Below, one piece after another: positions 1-4,596 of a stretch of DNA of 4,596 bases. Under the pieces are notes generated by a model. That model was not told the DNA's origin. It searched no databases and was given only the letters and a program-made list of their open reading frames with translations. A program made the position numbers and the translations under genes. Source of the stretch: a virus (taxonomy: Duplodnaviria > Heunggongvirae > Uroviricota > Caudoviricetes). Within the stretch, counting starts at the first letter, position 1, and each line of letters opens with the position of its first letter. The stretch lies in the IMG/VR virus record IMGVR_UViG_2695420426_000010. The stretch is one strand, 5' to 3'.

Positions 1-2
1 AT

Positions 3-6
3 GGAG
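3..6 (+). promoter_or_regulatory. Shine-Dalgarno-like ribosome binding site for J
   Basis: GGAG at 3..6 with an 8-nt spacer to ATG at 15; an in-frame TGA at 9..11 immediately precedes the start. Confidence 0.6.
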
Positions 7-14
7 CATGACGA

Positions 15-3000
15 ATGGGTAAAGGCAGCAGTAAGGGGCATACCCCGCGCGAAGCGAAGGACAACCTGAAGTCCACGCAGCTGCTGAGTGTGATCGATGC
101 CATCAGTGAAGGGCCGGTTGAAGGTCCGGTGGATGGATTAAAAAGCGTGCTGCTGAACAGTACGCCGGTGCTGGACAATGAGGGGAATACCAACATCTCC
201 GGCGTCACGGTGGTGTTCCGGGCAGGTGAGCAGGAGCAGTCACCGCCGGAGGGATTTGAATCCTCCGGCTCCGAGACGGTGCTGGGTACGGAAGTGAAAT
301 ATGACACGCCGATCACCCGGACCATCACGTCGGCAAACATCGACCGTCTGCGCTTTACCTTCGGTGTACAGGCACTGGTGGAAACCACCTCAAAGGGAGA
401 CAGGAATCCGTCTGAAGTTCGCCTGCTGGTTCAGATACAGCGTAACGGTGGCTGGGTGACGGAAAAAGACATCACCATTAAGGGCAAAACCACCTCGCAG
501 TATCTGGCCTCGGTGGTGGTGGATAACCTGCCGCCGCGCCCGTTTAATATCCGGATGCGCAGAATGACGCCGGACAGCACCACAGACCAGCTGCAGAACA
601 AAACGCTCTGGTCGTCATACACCGAAATCATCGATGTGAAACAGTGCTACCCGAACACGGCACTGGTCGGCGTACAGGTGGATTCGGAGCAGTTCGGCAG
701 CCAGCAGGTGAGCCGTAATTATCATCTTCGCGGGCGCATTCTGCAGGTGCCGTCGAACTATAATCCGCAGACGCGGCAATACAGCGGTATCTGGGACGGA
801 ACGTTAAAACCGGCATACAGCAACAACATGGCCTGGTGTCTGTGGGATATGCTGACCCATCCGCGCTATGGCATGGGGAAACGTCTTGGTGCGGCAGATG
901 TGGATAAATGGGCGCTGTATGTCATCGGCCAGTACTGTGACCAGTCGGTGCCGGACGGCTTTGGCAGCACGGAGCCGCGCATCACCTGTAATGCCTGGCT
1001 GACCACACAGCGCAAGGCGTGGGATGTGCTCAGTGATTTCTGCTCGGCGATGCGCTGTATGCCGGTATGGAACGGGCAGACGCTGACGTTCGTGCAGGAC
1101 CGACCGTCGGATAAGGTGTGGACCTATAACCGCAGTAATGTGGTGATGCCGGATGATGGCGCGCCGTTCCGCTACAGCTTCAGCGCCCTGAAAGACCGCC
1201 ATAATGCCGTTGAGGTGAACTGGATTGACCCGGATAACGGCTGGGAGACGGCGACAGAGCTTGTGGAGGATACGCAGGCCATTGCCCGTTACGGTCGTAA
1301 CGTCACGAAGATGGATGCTTTTGGCTGTACCAGCCGGGGGCAGGCACACCGCGCCGGGCTGTGGCTGATTAAAACAGAAGGGCCGGTTGAAGGTCCGGTG
1401 GATGGATTAAAAAGCGTGCTGCTGAACAGTACGCCGGTGCTGGACAATGAGGGGAATACCAACATCTCCGGCGTCACGGTGGTGTTCCGGGCAGGTGAGC
1501 AGGAGCAGTCACCGCCGGAGGGGTTTGAATCCTCCGGCTCCGAGACGGTGCTGGGTACGGAAGTGAAATATGACACGCCGATCACCCGGACCATCACGTC
1601 GGCAAACATCGACCGTCTGCGCTTTACCTTCGGTGTACAGGCACTGGTGGAAACCACCTCAAAGGGAGACAGGAATCCGTCGGAAGTCCGCCTGCTGGTT
1701 CAGATACAGCGTAACGGTGGCTGGGTGACGGAAAAAGACATCACCATTAAGGGCAAAACCACCTCGCAGTATCTGGTCTCGGTGGTGGTGGATAACCTGC
1801 CTCCGCGCCCGTTCAGTATCCGGATGCGCAGGATGACACCGGACAGCACCACAGACCAGCTGCAGAACAAAACGCTCTGGTCGTCATACACCGAAATCAT
1901 CGATGTGAAACAGTGCTACCCGAACACTGCACTGGTCGGCGTACAGGTGGACTCGGAGCAGTTCGGCAGCCAGCAGGTGAGTCGTAATTATCATCTTCGC
2001 GGGCGCATTCTGCAGGTGCCGTCGAACTATAACCCGCAGACGCGACAATACAGCGGTATCTGGGACGGAACGTTAAAACCAGCATACAGCAACAACATGG
2101 CCTGGTGTCTGTGGGATATGCTGACCCACCCGCGCTACGGCATGGGGAAACGTCTTGGTGCGGCGGATGTGGACAAATGGGCGCTGTATGTCATCGGCCA
2201 GTACTGCGACCAGTCAGTGCCGGACGGCTTTGGCGGCACGGAGCCGCGCATCACCTGTAATGCGTACCTGACCACACAGCGCAAGGCGTGGGATGTGCTC
2301 AGTGATTTCTGCTCGGCGATGCGCTGTATGCCGGTATGGAACGGGCAGACGCTGACGTTCGTGCAGGACCGACAGTCGGATAAGGTGTGGGCCTATAACC
2401 GCAGTAATGTGGTGATGCCGGATGATGGCGCGCCGTTCCGCTACAGTTTCAGCGCCCTGAAAGACCGCCATAATGCCGTTGAGGTGAACTGGATTGACCC
2501 GGATAACGGCTGGGAGACGGCGACAGAGCTTGTGGAGGATACGCAGGCCATTGTCCGTTACGGTCGTAACGTCACGAAGATGGATGCCTTTGGCTGTACC
2601 AGCCGGGGGCAGGCACACCGCGCCGGGCTGTGGCTGATTAAAACAGAACTGCTGGAAACGCAGACCGTGGACTTCAGCGTGGGCGCAGAAGGGCTTCGCC
2701 ATGTGCCGGGCGATGTCATTGAAATCTGTGATGATGACTATGCGGGTATCAGCATCGGCGGGCGCGTGCTGGCGGTAAACAGCCAGACCCGGACGCTGAC
2801 GCTCGACCGTGAAATCACGCTGCCATCCTCCGGTACCATGCTGATAAGCCTGGTTGACGGAAGTGGCAATCCGGTCAGCGTGGAGGTTCAGTCCGTCACC
2901 GACGGCGTGAAGGTGAAAGTGAGCCGTGTTCCTGACGGCGTTGCTGAATACAGCGTGTGGGGGCTGAAGCTGCCGACGTTGCGCCAGCGCCTGTTCCGCT

Positions 3001-4596
3001 GTGTGAGTATCCGTGAGAACGATGACGGCACGTATGCCATCACTGCCGTGCAGCATGTACCGGAAAAAGAAGCCATCGTGGATAACGGGGCGCACTTTGA
3101 CGGCGACCAGAGCGGCACGGTGAATGGTGTCACGCCGCCAGCGGTGCAGCACCTGACTGCCGAAGTCACCGCAGACAGCGGGGAATATCAGGTGCTGGCG
3201 CGCTGGGACACGCCGAAGGTGGTGAAGGGGGTGAGCTTTATGCTTCGCCTGACCGTGGCAGCGGATGACGGCAGTGAGCGGCTGGTCAGCACGGCCCGGA
3301 CGACGGAAACCACATACCGCTTCACGCAACTGGCGCTGGGACGGTACACGCTGACAGTCCGGGCGGTAAATGCCTGGGGACAGCAGGGCGATCCGGCGTC
3401 GGTATCGTTCAGGATTGCCGCACCGGTAGCACCGTCGCGGATTGAGCTGACGCCGGGCTATTTTCAGATAACTGCCACGCCGCATCTTGCGGTTTATGAT
3501 CCGACGGTACAGTTTGAGTTCTGGTTCTCGGAAACGCGGATTACCGATATCAGGCAGGTTGAAACCACAGCCCGCTACCTTGGCGCGGGGCTGTACTGGA
3601 TAGCCGCCAGTATCAATATCAAACCGGGCCATGATTATTACTTTTATATCCGCAGTGTGAACACCGTTGGCAAATCGGCATTCGTGGAGGCCGTCGGTCG
3701 GGCGAGCGATGATGCGGAAGGTTACCTGGATTTTTTCAAAGGCAAGATAACCGAATCCCATCTCGGTAAAGAGCTGCTGGAAAAAGTTGATCTGACGGAG
3801 GATAACGCCAGCAGACTGGATGAGTTTTCGAAAGAGTGGAAGGACGCTAACGATAAATGGAATGCGATGTGGGGCGTCAAAATTGAGCAGACCAAAGACG
3901 GCAAACATTATGTCGCGGGTATTGGCCTCAGCATGGAGGACACGGAGGAAGGCAAGCTGAGCCAGTTTCTGGTTGCCGCCAATCGTATCGCGTTTATTGA
4001 CCCGGCAAACGGGAATGAAACGCCGATGTTTGTGGCGCAGGGCAACCAGATATTCATGAACGACGTGTTCCTGAAGCGCCTGACAGCCCCCGCCATTACC
4101 AGCGGTGGCAGTCCTCCGGTATTTTCCCTGACATCAGACGGAAAGCTGACCGCTAAAAATGCGGATATCAGTGGTAGTGTGAATGCGAACTCAGGAACGC
4201 TCAACAATGTCACGATTAACCAGAACTGTACGATTAAGGGCATGCTGGAGGCGACCCAGGTCAGAGGGGATTTCGTTAAAGCTGTATCAAAAGCCTTCCC
4301 GAAAAAAGTCGGTACGTGGGGTAACACGGAAACACCAGACGGTACGGTTACAGTCACCATCAGCGATGATCATAACTTTGACCGCCAGATTATTATTCCG
4401 CCCATTATTTTTAACGGTATAGCGTATGACGATCCGGGGAGCGGAAATAACCCGGGAGGCACGCGATACACGGGTTATGGTTTTGAAGTTCGCAAAAACG
4501 GCGTATTAATCGCATCCAGAGAAACTAAAGGTGCCATTCCCGGTAGTTACAGTGCAGTTATTGATATGCCTAGTGGTGGTGGTAGCGTCACTCTGG
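15..4596 (+). CDS. J: Lambda-like tail tip / host specificity protein J (central tail fibre), 3'-partial, containing an internal in-frame tandem duplication of residues 33-455
   Basis: Hand translation of the frame starting at ATG 15 gives [168 protein letters not shown]..., which I recognise from memory as near-identical to the N-terminus of phage lambda gpJ. Downstream segments ([62 protein letters not shown]..., ...[124 protein letters not shown]...[15 protein letters not shown]) also match lambda J in the same order. I found no in-frame stop anywhere from 15 to 4596 by hand translation, and a TGA at 9..11 closes the frame just upstream, so ATG 15 is the first start. GGAG at 3..6 sits 8 nt upstream of the ATG. 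The gene runs off the 3' end of the window, which is why the ORF track does not list it. Confidence 0.93.
111..1379 (+). repeat. Direct tandem repeat copy 1 (1269 bp, J codons 33-455)
   Basis: Sequence from 111 (gggccggttgaaggtccggtggatggattaaaaagcgtgctgctgaacag...) to 1379 (...ggctgtggctgattaaaacagaa) recurs at 1380..2648 with a period of exactly 1269 bp (3 x 423), so the J frame is preserved. The duplicated antisense ORFs in the track (431..631 vs 1700..1900; 628..816 vs 1897..2085) show the same 1269 offset. Confidence 0.95.
1380..2648 (+). repeat. Direct tandem repeat copy 2 (1269 bp, second copy of J codons 33-455)
   Basis: About 97-98% identical to copy 1 by my hand comparison (about 30 substitutions, no indels noticed). 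It ends at ...ctgattaaaacagaa (2646..2648 = gaa) and is followed by ctgctggaaacgcagaccgtg (LLETQTV), the normal continuation of J. Confidence 0.95.
3132..3698 (+). other. Two tandem fibronectin type III-like (Ig-like beta-sandwich) domains within J
   Basis: Two consecutive segments of about 95 aa with FN3-like character: [98 protein letters not shown] and [91 protein letters not shown]. Each has a conserved Trp near its N-terminal strand, a Tyr-containing strand, and a tyrosine corner-like motif (TYRF / YYFYIRSVN). FN3 domains are known in lambda J. Boundaries are approximate. Confidence 0.5.
4204..4596 (+). other. Divergent C-terminal receptor-binding (host-range) module of J, 3'-partial
   Basis: Up to ...[15 protein letters not shown] the protein tracks lambda J closely. 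From about 4204 it reads [131 protein letters not shown], only distantly similar to my recollection of the lambda C-terminus. Composition becomes visibly more AT-rich with rarer codons (ata, aga, cct, agt), e.g. attattattccgcccattatttttaacggtatagcg. The start coordinate is approximate. Confidence 0.55.

What the first reader, a model, noticed from the sequence alone, without database searches (positions are those of the whole stretch)
111..2648. The two copies differ mostly at synonymous sites, as if two diverged functional J alleles were joined
My hand comparison finds about 30 single-nucleotide differences between the copies (about 2.4%), roughly three quarters synonymous and mostly transitions. 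The amino-acid changes I see are A/V, N/S, S/G, W/Y, P/Q, T/A and A/V. This is what two alleles evolving separately under purifying selection look like. It argues against a very recent duplication and against sequencing noise. The likeliest origins are unequal recombination between J genes of two different lambdoid prophages, or an assembler joining reads from two prophages. The counts are approximate because they were made by eye.
Basis: partly seen in the sequence, partly recalled or inferred. Interest (0 to 1): 0.55.

Follow-up and report, generated by a model that had tools for sequence, protein, structure and literature searches.

The report
Probable false tandem duplication in J
The two near-identical 1.27-kb copies inside this phage tail-tip gene are real in the deposited sequence, but they are most likely an assembly artefact: short-read contigs from two resident prophage alleles of Shigella sonnei placed one after the other.

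Summary
Windows 108-1379 and 1377-2648 are a 1269-nt in-frame direct repeat with 30 substitutions and no indels.

The differences are old allelic variation, not noise or in-place divergence. At 28 of 30 sites both states occur among 61 independent J alleles.

The copies are not two alleles. The window is the whole 4596-nt contig CXFB01000232.1 of a 377-contig Illumina draft of Shigella sonnei, made with Velvet, SSPACE and GapFiller. Copy 1 and copy 2 are reciprocal mosaics of two natural alleles:
- X carries copy-1 states at sites 1-25 and copy-2 states at sites 26-30.
- Y carries the opposite pattern and is the standard S. sonnei J (0/1083 aa mismatches after swapping the 3' blocks).

Both repeat edges sit directly next to common inter-allelic SNPs (107 and 1376), and the period equals the distance between them. 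Similar J "duplications" in other drafts have a single N at the junction. The junction occurs in no other collection searched.

Best reading: a scaffolding or gap-closing false join (about 0.75). A real duplication specific to this strain remains possible (about 0.2). Mapping the reads of ERR039524 would settle it. Interest is low.

The parts
1..11 (+). 3' end of the upstream tail-assembly gene (lambda I-like), stop TGA at 9-11
   Evidence: Frame analysis. In related loci the PF06805 Lambda_tail_I gene ends just before J.
15..4596 (+). J (TipJ / lambda gpJ-type tail tip protein) ORF. It runs off the contig end and gives 1527 aa = WP_216078219.1 'partial'.
   Evidence: Pfam FNIII-A_GpJ x2, Phage-tail_3 x2, Ig_J, Ig_J_second, Phage_Tail_Tip, Ig_GpJ_C. 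PDB lambda gpJ 8iyk/9e7m at E=0. Exact look-up in the protein collection.
108..1379 (+). Copy 1 of the 1269-nt unit (J residues 32-454), including the shared GAA
1377..2648 (+). Copy 2 of the unit
1376..1379 (+). Junction. Inferred end of the left contig at 1375, one filler base (A, 1376), then the start of the right contig at GAA (1377).
   Evidence: Sites 107 and 1376 are common SNPs (C65/T16 and G52/A29 of 81 alleles) that abut both repeat edges, and 1376-107=1269. Other drafts carry a single N at the equivalent position. That this junction was a contig join is an inference.
413..998 (+). X-allele tract in copy 1 (24 informative sites; site 254 also carries the X state)
   Evidence: L081, L021, L022 and L024 carry copy-1 states at sites 1-25.
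1105..2267 (+). Y-allele tract that runs from the 3' block of copy 1 across the junction into the 5' block of copy 2
   Evidence: L091 shows the pattern 2x25 + 1x5. P0124 has 0/1083 aa mismatches to lf + c2[1-939] + c1[940-1269] + rf.
2374..2588 (+). X-allele tract in copy 2 (5 informative sites)
999..1104 (+). 106-nt stretch identical in X and Y where the phase switches in copy 1. The equivalent stretch in copy 2 is 2268-2373.
   Evidence: Positions of informative sites
2649..4596 (+). Y-type remainder of J (HDIV/OB, FNIII-1/2, helical shaft, fibre and most of the receptor-binding domain)
   Evidence: The protein is identical to S. sonnei P0124/P0131. It is only about 95% identical to the X-type L081 downstream of the unit.

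Best explanation
The duplication is probably a product of assembly and scaffolding, not a feature of the S. sonnei chromosome.

The isolate carries at least two lambdoid prophages. Their J genes (alleles X and Y) are identical over long stretches and differ at about 30 mostly synonymous SNPs in the first 1.4 kb.

Inferred steps:
1. In the Velvet graph the two alleles form parallel branches joined by shared nodes. Two overlapping contigs came out of this graph.
2. The first contig carried the end of gene I plus J nt 1-1361 and ended just before SNP 1376.
3. The second contig started just after the SNP equivalent to 107 and ran into the 3' part of J.
4. Each contig changed allele once, in the 106-nt stretch that X and Y share. 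They are therefore reciprocal X/Y mosaics.
5. The greedy scaffolder placed the two contigs in series with a minimal gap, and the gap was closed with one base.
6. Both bounding SNPs are third codon positions, so the join is automatically in frame and yields a 1527-aa 'J' with residues 32-454 repeated.

The low dN/dS simply reflects purifying selection on the two real alleles.

Shown directly: the identity of the contig and pipeline, the reciprocal mosaic, the SNP-flush edges, the singleton status, and the N-junction analogues. Inferred: that this particular junction was a scaffold gap.
For: - The window is the complete 4596-nt contig CXFB01000232.1 of GCA_001248565.1, and its protein occurs on that contig only.
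- CXFB01000001-377 (run ERR039524) is listed in the supplement of the Sanger Velvet+SSPACE+GapFiller pipeline paper. That paper says these greedy tools 'can lead to false joins' and reports a mean of 405 contigs for S. sonnei.
- The 30 sites give pattern 1x25+2x5 in L081/L021/L022/L024 and 2x25+1x5 in L091. No all-1 or all-2 allele occurs among about 90 alleles.
- The standard S. sonnei J protein P0124 (36 contigs) has 0/1083 mismatches to copy2-5' + copy1-3'. It has 4, 3 and 7 mismatches to the other three combinations.
- Sites 107 and 1376, which abut the repeat edges, are common SNPs. Only 4.4% of sites reach MAF >= 0.19, so both doing so by chance is about 0.002.
- Other partial S. sonnei J proteins also start or end flush at polymorphic sites.
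- Three other drafts have J-internal 'duplications' with a single N exactly at the junction: L081, L085 and L094. A fourth, L083, is joined through an 11-nt overlap.
- The junction is absent from 5426 complete E. coli genomes, 50,697 phage records, the GTDB representatives, IMG/VR and JGI metagenomes. No other protein in the 5.8-billion-cluster collection has the 423-aa repeat.
Against: - The window has no N at the junction. The two sides share a 3-nt GAA microhomology, typical of real illegitimate recombination and expected by chance only about 1 time in 64 at a random join.
- As published, GapFiller closes a gap only when the extensions from both sides can be merged. A closed gap could therefore mean that reads do span the junction.
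- I could not identify which read pairs would have made the scaffolder link the end of the unit to its start.
- Both copies carry Y states at 178 and 341-353, although the X allele of another S. sonnei isolate (L081) differs there. This needs either bubble popping or a slightly different resident allele.
- No reads were available to test any of this.
Confidence: 0.75

Rival explanations
1. A real, recent, strain-specific tandem duplication of J nt 94-1362 arose in one prophage by illegitimate recombination at the GAA microhomology. The differences between copies come from the second resident allele, either through real recombination between prophages or because the assembler threaded X-allele reads into a true Y-Y duplication.
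For: The junction is seamless, in frame and has a 3-nt microhomology. A true tandem repeat would also break de Bruijn contigs at the unit boundaries, and read pairs would then link unit end to unit start. GapFiller's stated rule for closing a gap requires extensions that can be merged. Both copies share the rare N55 state and Y states at 341-353 and 1376, as a Y-Y duplication would.
Against: It is a singleton in a clonal species that has been sequenced heavily. Repeat edges that abut two common SNPs would be a coincidence, with p of about 0.002-0.04. The exactly reciprocal X/Y mosaic needs two complementary conversion tracts or two phasing errors. The same gene shows different 'duplications' in several drafts whose junctions are unbridged Ns; that frequency is too high for independent real events. 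The repeated segment (residues 32-454) ends inside HDIV, the core hub domain of gpJ, rather than at a domain boundary, so a working tail tip is unlikely.
Confidence: 0.2
2. Unequal recombination joined the whole 5' unit of prophage allele A (copy 1) to the whole unit of prophage allele B (copy 2).
For: The divergence between copies (2.4%, dN/dS 0.11) is typical of distances between alleles; pool alleles differ from either copy at 10-50 sites.
Against: Neither the copy-1 nor the copy-2 haplotype exists among about 90 alleles, whereas their reciprocal recombinants do. The copies share a private variant (178/1447) and are identical over the first 146 nt. When 97% homology is available in register, homologous exchange would produce a normal hybrid J, not a 3-nt-microhomology join.
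Confidence: 0.03
3. An old tandem duplication whose copies diverged in place under purifying selection, or else sequencing noise.
For: The substitutions are biased towards synonymous changes.
Against: At 28/30 sites both states already segregate in other J alleles. The construct occurs in one assembly only. By general knowledge, a 1.27-kb direct repeat at 97.6% identity would be lost through RecA-dependent deletion long before dS reached 0.08. Noise would not be 77% at third codon positions.
Confidence: 0.01

Closest known systems
False (haplotype-type) duplication in draft assemblies: two diverged copies of one region placed in series by a greedy scaffolder or gap filler (SSPACE/GapFiller in the Sanger pipeline, PMC5320598)
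   Same: It is a short repeat-only contig from a 377-contig Illumina draft made with that pipeline. The copies are mosaics of two resident alleles. The edges lie at SNP branch points. Sibling cases have a single N at the junction.
   Different: Here the gap is closed seamlessly and a 3-nt overlap is present, so the sequence alone cannot show the placeholder. The two 'haplotypes' are paralogous prophage alleles in a haploid genome, not diploid haplotypes.
Phage lambda gpJ / TipJ-family tail tip (central fibre) protein
   Same: The domain order after the repeat is the same: FNIII-A, Phage-tail_3 hub, two Ig/FNIII domains, tail-tip fibre and C-terminal receptor-binding domain. It matches PDB 8iyk/9e7m at E=0. 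The gene context is I-J.
   Different: Residues 32-454 (HDII-insertion, FNIII-A, HDII and further hub sequence, ending inside HDIV) appear twice. Natural gpJ proteins are about 1130-1165 aa. The receptor-binding end resembles the 'A8 gpJ 713' type (9wca) more than lambda's own.
Mosaic J alleles produced by recombination among lambdoid prophages
   Same: The pool of J alleles is a fine-grained mosaic: nearly every one of about 90 alleles has its own pattern at the 30 sites. This explains why the differences between copies look like selected standing variation.
   Different: Natural mosaics are single-copy. None carries the unit-end to unit-start junction.

Membership tests
TipJ / lambda gpJ tail tip protein | Pfam domain set FNIII-A_GpJ, Phage-tail_3, Ig_J, Ig_J_second, Phage_Tail_Tip and Ig_GpJ_C, all above the gathering scores | tested here: met
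   all six families scored 70-276 bits against cut-offs of 22-29. FNIII-A and Phage-tail_3 each matched twice.
TipJ / lambda gpJ tail tip protein | Sequence homology to structurally solved gpJ, and position directly downstream of the I-like tail assembly gene | tested here: met
   (8iyk, 9e7m at E=0). Searches show the Lambda_tail_I gene immediately upstream in related loci. The window has the stop at 9-11 and the ATG at 15.
Genuine genomic tandem duplication | The novel junction is present in independent sequences (other strains, assemblies or collections) | tested here: not met
   Searches found no contiguous junction; the protein is known from this one contig only.
Genuine genomic tandem duplication | Reads and read pairs span the junction, and depth over the unit is raised | not testable with these tools
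   The reads (ERR039524, identified) cannot be fetched here.
Genuine genomic tandem duplication | Each copy is a coherent haplotype, either identical to the other or derived from one parental allele | tested here: not met
   the copies are reciprocal X/Y mosaics, and no natural allele has either copy's haplotype.
Scaffolding / gap-closing false join | The assembly was made from short reads with a greedy scaffolder and gap filler, and the sequence is a short contig made only of multi-copy sequence | tested here: met
   (CXFB01, 377 contigs, Sanger pipeline). J occurs a median of 3-4 times per E. coli genome.
Scaffolding / gap-closing false join | The joined ends coincide with graph branch points, i.e. 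inter-allelic SNPs | tested here: met
   sites 107 and 1376 are common SNPs flush with both edges, and the period equals their distance. Chance is about 0.002.
Scaffolding / gap-closing false join | A placeholder N, or a minimal overlap, at the join | tested here: inconclusive
   The window has no N, only a single base (1376) and a GAA overlap. A single N sits at the equivalent junction in L081, L085 and L094, and L083 has an 11-nt overlap.

The most novel reading that the evidence does not exclude
The junction is real. One S. sonnei isolate would then carry a prophage whose tail-tip gene J has an in-frame tandem duplication of 423 codons (most of the hub domains HDII-insertion, FNIII-A and HDII, ending inside HDIV), built from sequence of two resident prophage alleles. 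That would be an example of microhomology-mediated expansion of a phage tail hub protein, still with an intact reading frame.
Probability: 0.2. Interest if true: 0.35.

Novelty: not a real feature. Interest (0 to 1): 0.1.

Why it matters
As biology it matters little. If the duplication is an artefact, it says nothing about how J evolves.

It has some practical value as a warning:
- The chimeric 1527-aa product is a RefSeq protein (WP_216078219.1).
- Several other over-long 'J' proteins in nr/RefSeq have the same origin, three of them with an N at the junction.
- Such records can mislead surveys of tail-fibre domain duplication, prophage typing and dN/dS scans for 'diverged paralogous repeats'.

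The case also gives a simple diagnostic for this class of artefact: the copies are reciprocal mosaics of resident alleles, the repeat edges sit flush against inter-allelic SNPs, and the join is in frame because those SNPs are third codon positions.

Tried and rejected
- I searched for the junction (121-nt query and an exact 24-mer) in complete E. coli genomes, phage records, GTDB representatives, IMG/VR and JGI metagenomes. Nothing contiguous was found. The 29 E. coli records with 'full coverage' consist of two separate pieces 312-657 nt apart. The two I opened (H1, H2) are truncated J pseudogenes, not junctions.
- I looked for 100% matches to each copy in complete E. coli genomes. The best were only about 98%, because the source is Shigella, which that collection does not hold.
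- I tried to fetch DNA for the S. sonnei single-copy proteins P0124 and P0128. I used the protein comparison instead and an IMG/VR pattern search on the rare N55 codon, which returned the Y-type locus L091.
- I tested whether the outer ends of the contig (position 1) also abut a common SNP. They do not clearly do so.
- The start of the right-hand contig in L081 (equivalent to window 1331) is not polymorphic in my pool, so the SNP-flush rule does not hold everywhere.
- I considered a 'Campbell-type' insertion of a circular Y unit into an X-type gene. It reproduces the mosaic formally, but I rejected it as unparsimonious: there is no source for a 1269-nt circle, and the right flank is Y-type.
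- I did not run structure prediction of the duplicated protein, because it would not distinguish an artefact from a real duplication.

Full report
**1. The observation**

The window contains a gap-free direct repeat of period 1269 nt, from 108-1379 to 1377-2648. The two stretches share a GAA at their edges.

There are exactly 30 mismatches (2.36%). They fall 23/5/2 on codon positions 3/2/1, with 24 transitions and 6 transversions.

Nei-Gojobori counting gives Sd=22, Nd=8, dS=0.078, dN=0.0083 and dN/dS=0.106. The excess of synonymous change has p=1e-8.

A single ORF starts at ATG 15, four bases after the TGA (9-11) of the upstream gene. It stays open through both copies to the end of the window.

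The ORF is a lambda gpJ/TipJ tail tip protein. FNIII-A_GpJ and Phage-tail_3 each match twice, followed by Ig_J, Ig_J_second, Phage_Tail_Tip and Ig_GpJ_C. Lambda gpJ structures 8iyk and 9e7m match at E=0. The repeated segment is J residues 32-454.

**2. Where the differences come from**

I extracted the homologous 1269 nt from 61 gap-free single-copy J alleles in IMG/VR. At 28 of the 30 differing sites both states already segregate in that pool. Two states are private to copy 2. One rare state (N55, window 178/1447) is shared by both copies and absent from the pool.

The differences are therefore imported standing variation. They are not sequencing noise and not mutations that accumulated after a duplication. 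It also removes the argument against a recent origin.

**3. What the sequence is**

An exact look-up shows that the 1527-aa product is WP_216078219.1, 'phage attachment tail tip protein J, partial [Shigella sonnei]'. It is known from one contig of 4596 nt.

The window is the entire contig CXFB01000232.1 of assembly GCA_001248565.1. The supplement of Page et al. 2016 (PMC5320598) lists CXFB01000001-CXFB01000377 as run ERR039524, sample ERS024603, study ERP000182, Shigella sonnei.

That assembly came from the Sanger high-throughput pipeline:
- It runs VelvetOptimiser/Velvet, then SSPACE for 16 iterations, lowering the requirement to five linking read pairs.
- It then runs 120 iterations of GapFiller.
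- S. sonnei assemblies from the pipeline average 405 contigs.

The contig is thus a short piece made only of prophage sequence. J occurs at a median of 3-4 places per E. coli genome.

**4. The copies are reciprocal mosaics of two natural alleles**

I scored the 30 sites in about 90 natural alleles. Nearly every allele has its own fine mosaic, but two haplotypes stand out.
- X carries copy-1 states at sites 1-25 (window 254-998) and copy-2 states at sites 26-30 (1105-1319). It is seen in L081, a S. sonnei contig, and in IMG/VR loci L021, L022 and L024.
- Y carries the exact opposite pattern and is seen in L091.
- No allele has the all-copy-1 or the all-copy-2 pattern.

At protein level, the standard single-copy S. 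sonnei J (P0124, on 36 contigs, and also P0131) has 0 mismatches in 1083 residues to the construct left flank + copy2[1-939] + copy1[940-1269] + right flank. It has 4 mismatches to the copy-1-only construct, 3 to the copy-2-only construct, and 7 to the opposite chimera.

The window therefore reads:
- mostly Y-type left end (X-like at 8 and 12; X differs at 107, 178 and 341-353)
- X (413-998)
- Y (1105, across the junction, to 2267)
- X (2374-2588)
- Y (2645 to the end)

Both phase switches fall in the same 106-nt stretch that X and Y share.

A simple join of 'allele A + allele B' does not predict this. Reproducing it biologically needs a contrived series of events. An assembler walking twice through a chain of two-allele bubbles, taking each long branch once, produces it naturally.

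**5. The repeat edges**

The base just left of each edge, window 107 (T) and 1376 (A), is a common polymorphism among J alleles: C65/T16 and G52/A29 of 81 alleles. The S. sonnei X allele differs from the window at both.

The period of the repeat, 1269, equals 1376-107. Only 4.4% of sites in this region reach a minor-allele frequency of 0.19, so the chance that both do is about 0.002.

De Bruijn contigs end at q-1 and start at q+1 around a SNP at position q. The natural reading is that a contig ending at 1375 and a contig starting at the equivalent of 108 were concatenated with one base between them. Both SNPs are third codon positions, so such a join is in frame automatically.

Other partial S. 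sonnei J proteins show the same habit. P0131 starts at nt 570, right after the X/Y SNP at 569. P0132 ends immediately before a polymorphic D/N codon.

**6. Sibling cases**

Among the 120 best protein hits, about ten J proteins have different in-frame internal 'tandem duplications'. I examined six at DNA level:
- L081 (S. sonnei FTVF01000064.1): 1665-nt unit, 41 mismatches, a single N exactly at the junction.
- L085 (an IMG/VR contig): a single N exactly at the junction. A second N in L085 replaces 13 nt spanning the SNPs at 341, 347 and 353, with the flanking pieces ending at 340 and starting at 354.
- L094 (E. coli UDEU01000011.1): a single N exactly at the junction.
- L083 (S. sonnei CXBN01000105.1): joined through an 11-nt overlap.
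- L096: one odd filler base at the junction.
- L095: a 1-nt overlap.

Junctions left as N after gap filling are joins that no read bridged. This shows that this class of pipeline does concatenate overlapping J contigs. Several different 'duplications' of one gene among a few hundred assemblies of a clonal species is far too frequent for independent real events.

**7. Uniqueness**

The junction, tested as a 121-nt query and as an exact 24-mer, was not found contiguous in any of these collections:
- 5426 complete E. coli genomes
- 50,697 phage records
- GTDB species representatives
- IMG/VR
- JGI metagenomes

No other protein in the large collection carries the 423-aa repeat.

**8. What speaks for a real event**

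- The window's junction carries no N and has a 3-nt GAA microhomology. That is expected about 1 time in 64 at a random join and is typical of illegitimate recombination.
- GapFiller's published rule closes a gap only when the left and right extensions can be merged. A true tandem repeat would also break contigs at its boundaries and then be re-linked by read pairs.
- Native continuation of the left contig past 1375 reads A-GAA, and the right contig begins with GAA. A one-base fill is therefore arithmetically consistent with a 1-nt placeholder. Whether the pipeline's parameters allow such a closure without spanning reads I could not establish.

I therefore keep about 0.2 for a real duplication specific to this strain.

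If it were real, the protein would probably not assemble. The repeated segment takes in the HDII-insertion with its FNIII-A insert (residues 72-215) and following hub sequence. It ends at residue 454, before strand beta24 (residues 477-482), which flanks the beta-sandwich inserted in HDIV. HDIV is the core hub domain and carries HDIII as an insertion, so the repeat cuts through an interleaved fold rather than ending at a domain boundary. That last step is an inference.

**9. Verdict**

- The variation is allelic and shaped by selection.
- The copies are not two alleles.
- Nothing argues for an old or functional duplication.

Most likely this is not a real genomic feature (0.75). The decisive test is to map the public reads of ERR039524 across positions 1366-1390, or to run a junction PCR on the isolate.

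Noticed in passing
L081:8982; L085:13607 and 11485; L094:2685; L083:5324; L096 about 2445: Other public draft assemblies carry different in-frame 'tandem duplications' inside J. Their junction is a single N (L081, L085, L094), an 11-nt overlap (L083) or one odd filler base (L096). The resulting over-long proteins (P0003 at 1720 aa, P0061 at 1412 aa, P0014 at 1442 aa, P0002 at 1512 aa) sit in nr/RefSeq as ordinary J proteins.
   Followed up: partly
P0001 (1882 aa; 13.8-kb contig labelled Bacillus thuringiensis Sbt003): This is a lambda-type J protein with four identical tandem copies of a 250-aa segment, in an assembly of a Gram-positive bacterium. It looks like lambda DNA contamination combined with a misassembly.
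   Followed up: no
L081:11260-12801 and L083:7811-9187: Both S. sonnei contigs have a further partial J-like ORF (513 and 458 aa; Ig_J_second, Phage_Tail_Tip, Ig_GpJ_C) between J and lom. It is unclear whether this is a real remnant or another scaffolding product.
   Followed up: no
window 2214-3908 and 3908-4360, minus strand: Long antisense ORFs of 564 and 150 aa lie inside J. They are listed as called genes for this contig but have no Pfam hit. They are probably shadow ORFs of the GC3-rich J frame.
   Followed up: no
window 3422-4595 (J residues 1136-1527 of the contig protein): The receptor-binding end matches PDB 9wca 'A8 gpJ 713' (E=9e-200) slightly better than lambda's own C-terminal fragment 8xcj (E=5e-193). 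This allele therefore has the non-lambda type of receptor-binding domain.
   Followed up: no
window 178 and 1447: Both copies share the codon AAT (Asn55). It is absent from 61 pool alleles but present in the standard S. sonnei J (P0124) and in ten IMG/VR loci found by an exact pattern search. It is a useful marker of the Y-type 5' end.
   Followed up: yes
L097 (NZ_CP042893.1) and L098 (NZ_CP104509.1): In complete E. coli genomes where the unit-end and unit-start sequences lie 312-657 nt apart, the two records opened hold truncated J pseudogenes (one missing the C-terminus, one the N-terminus), including one in a Qin-like prophage remnant. They are not duplication junctions.
   Followed up: partly
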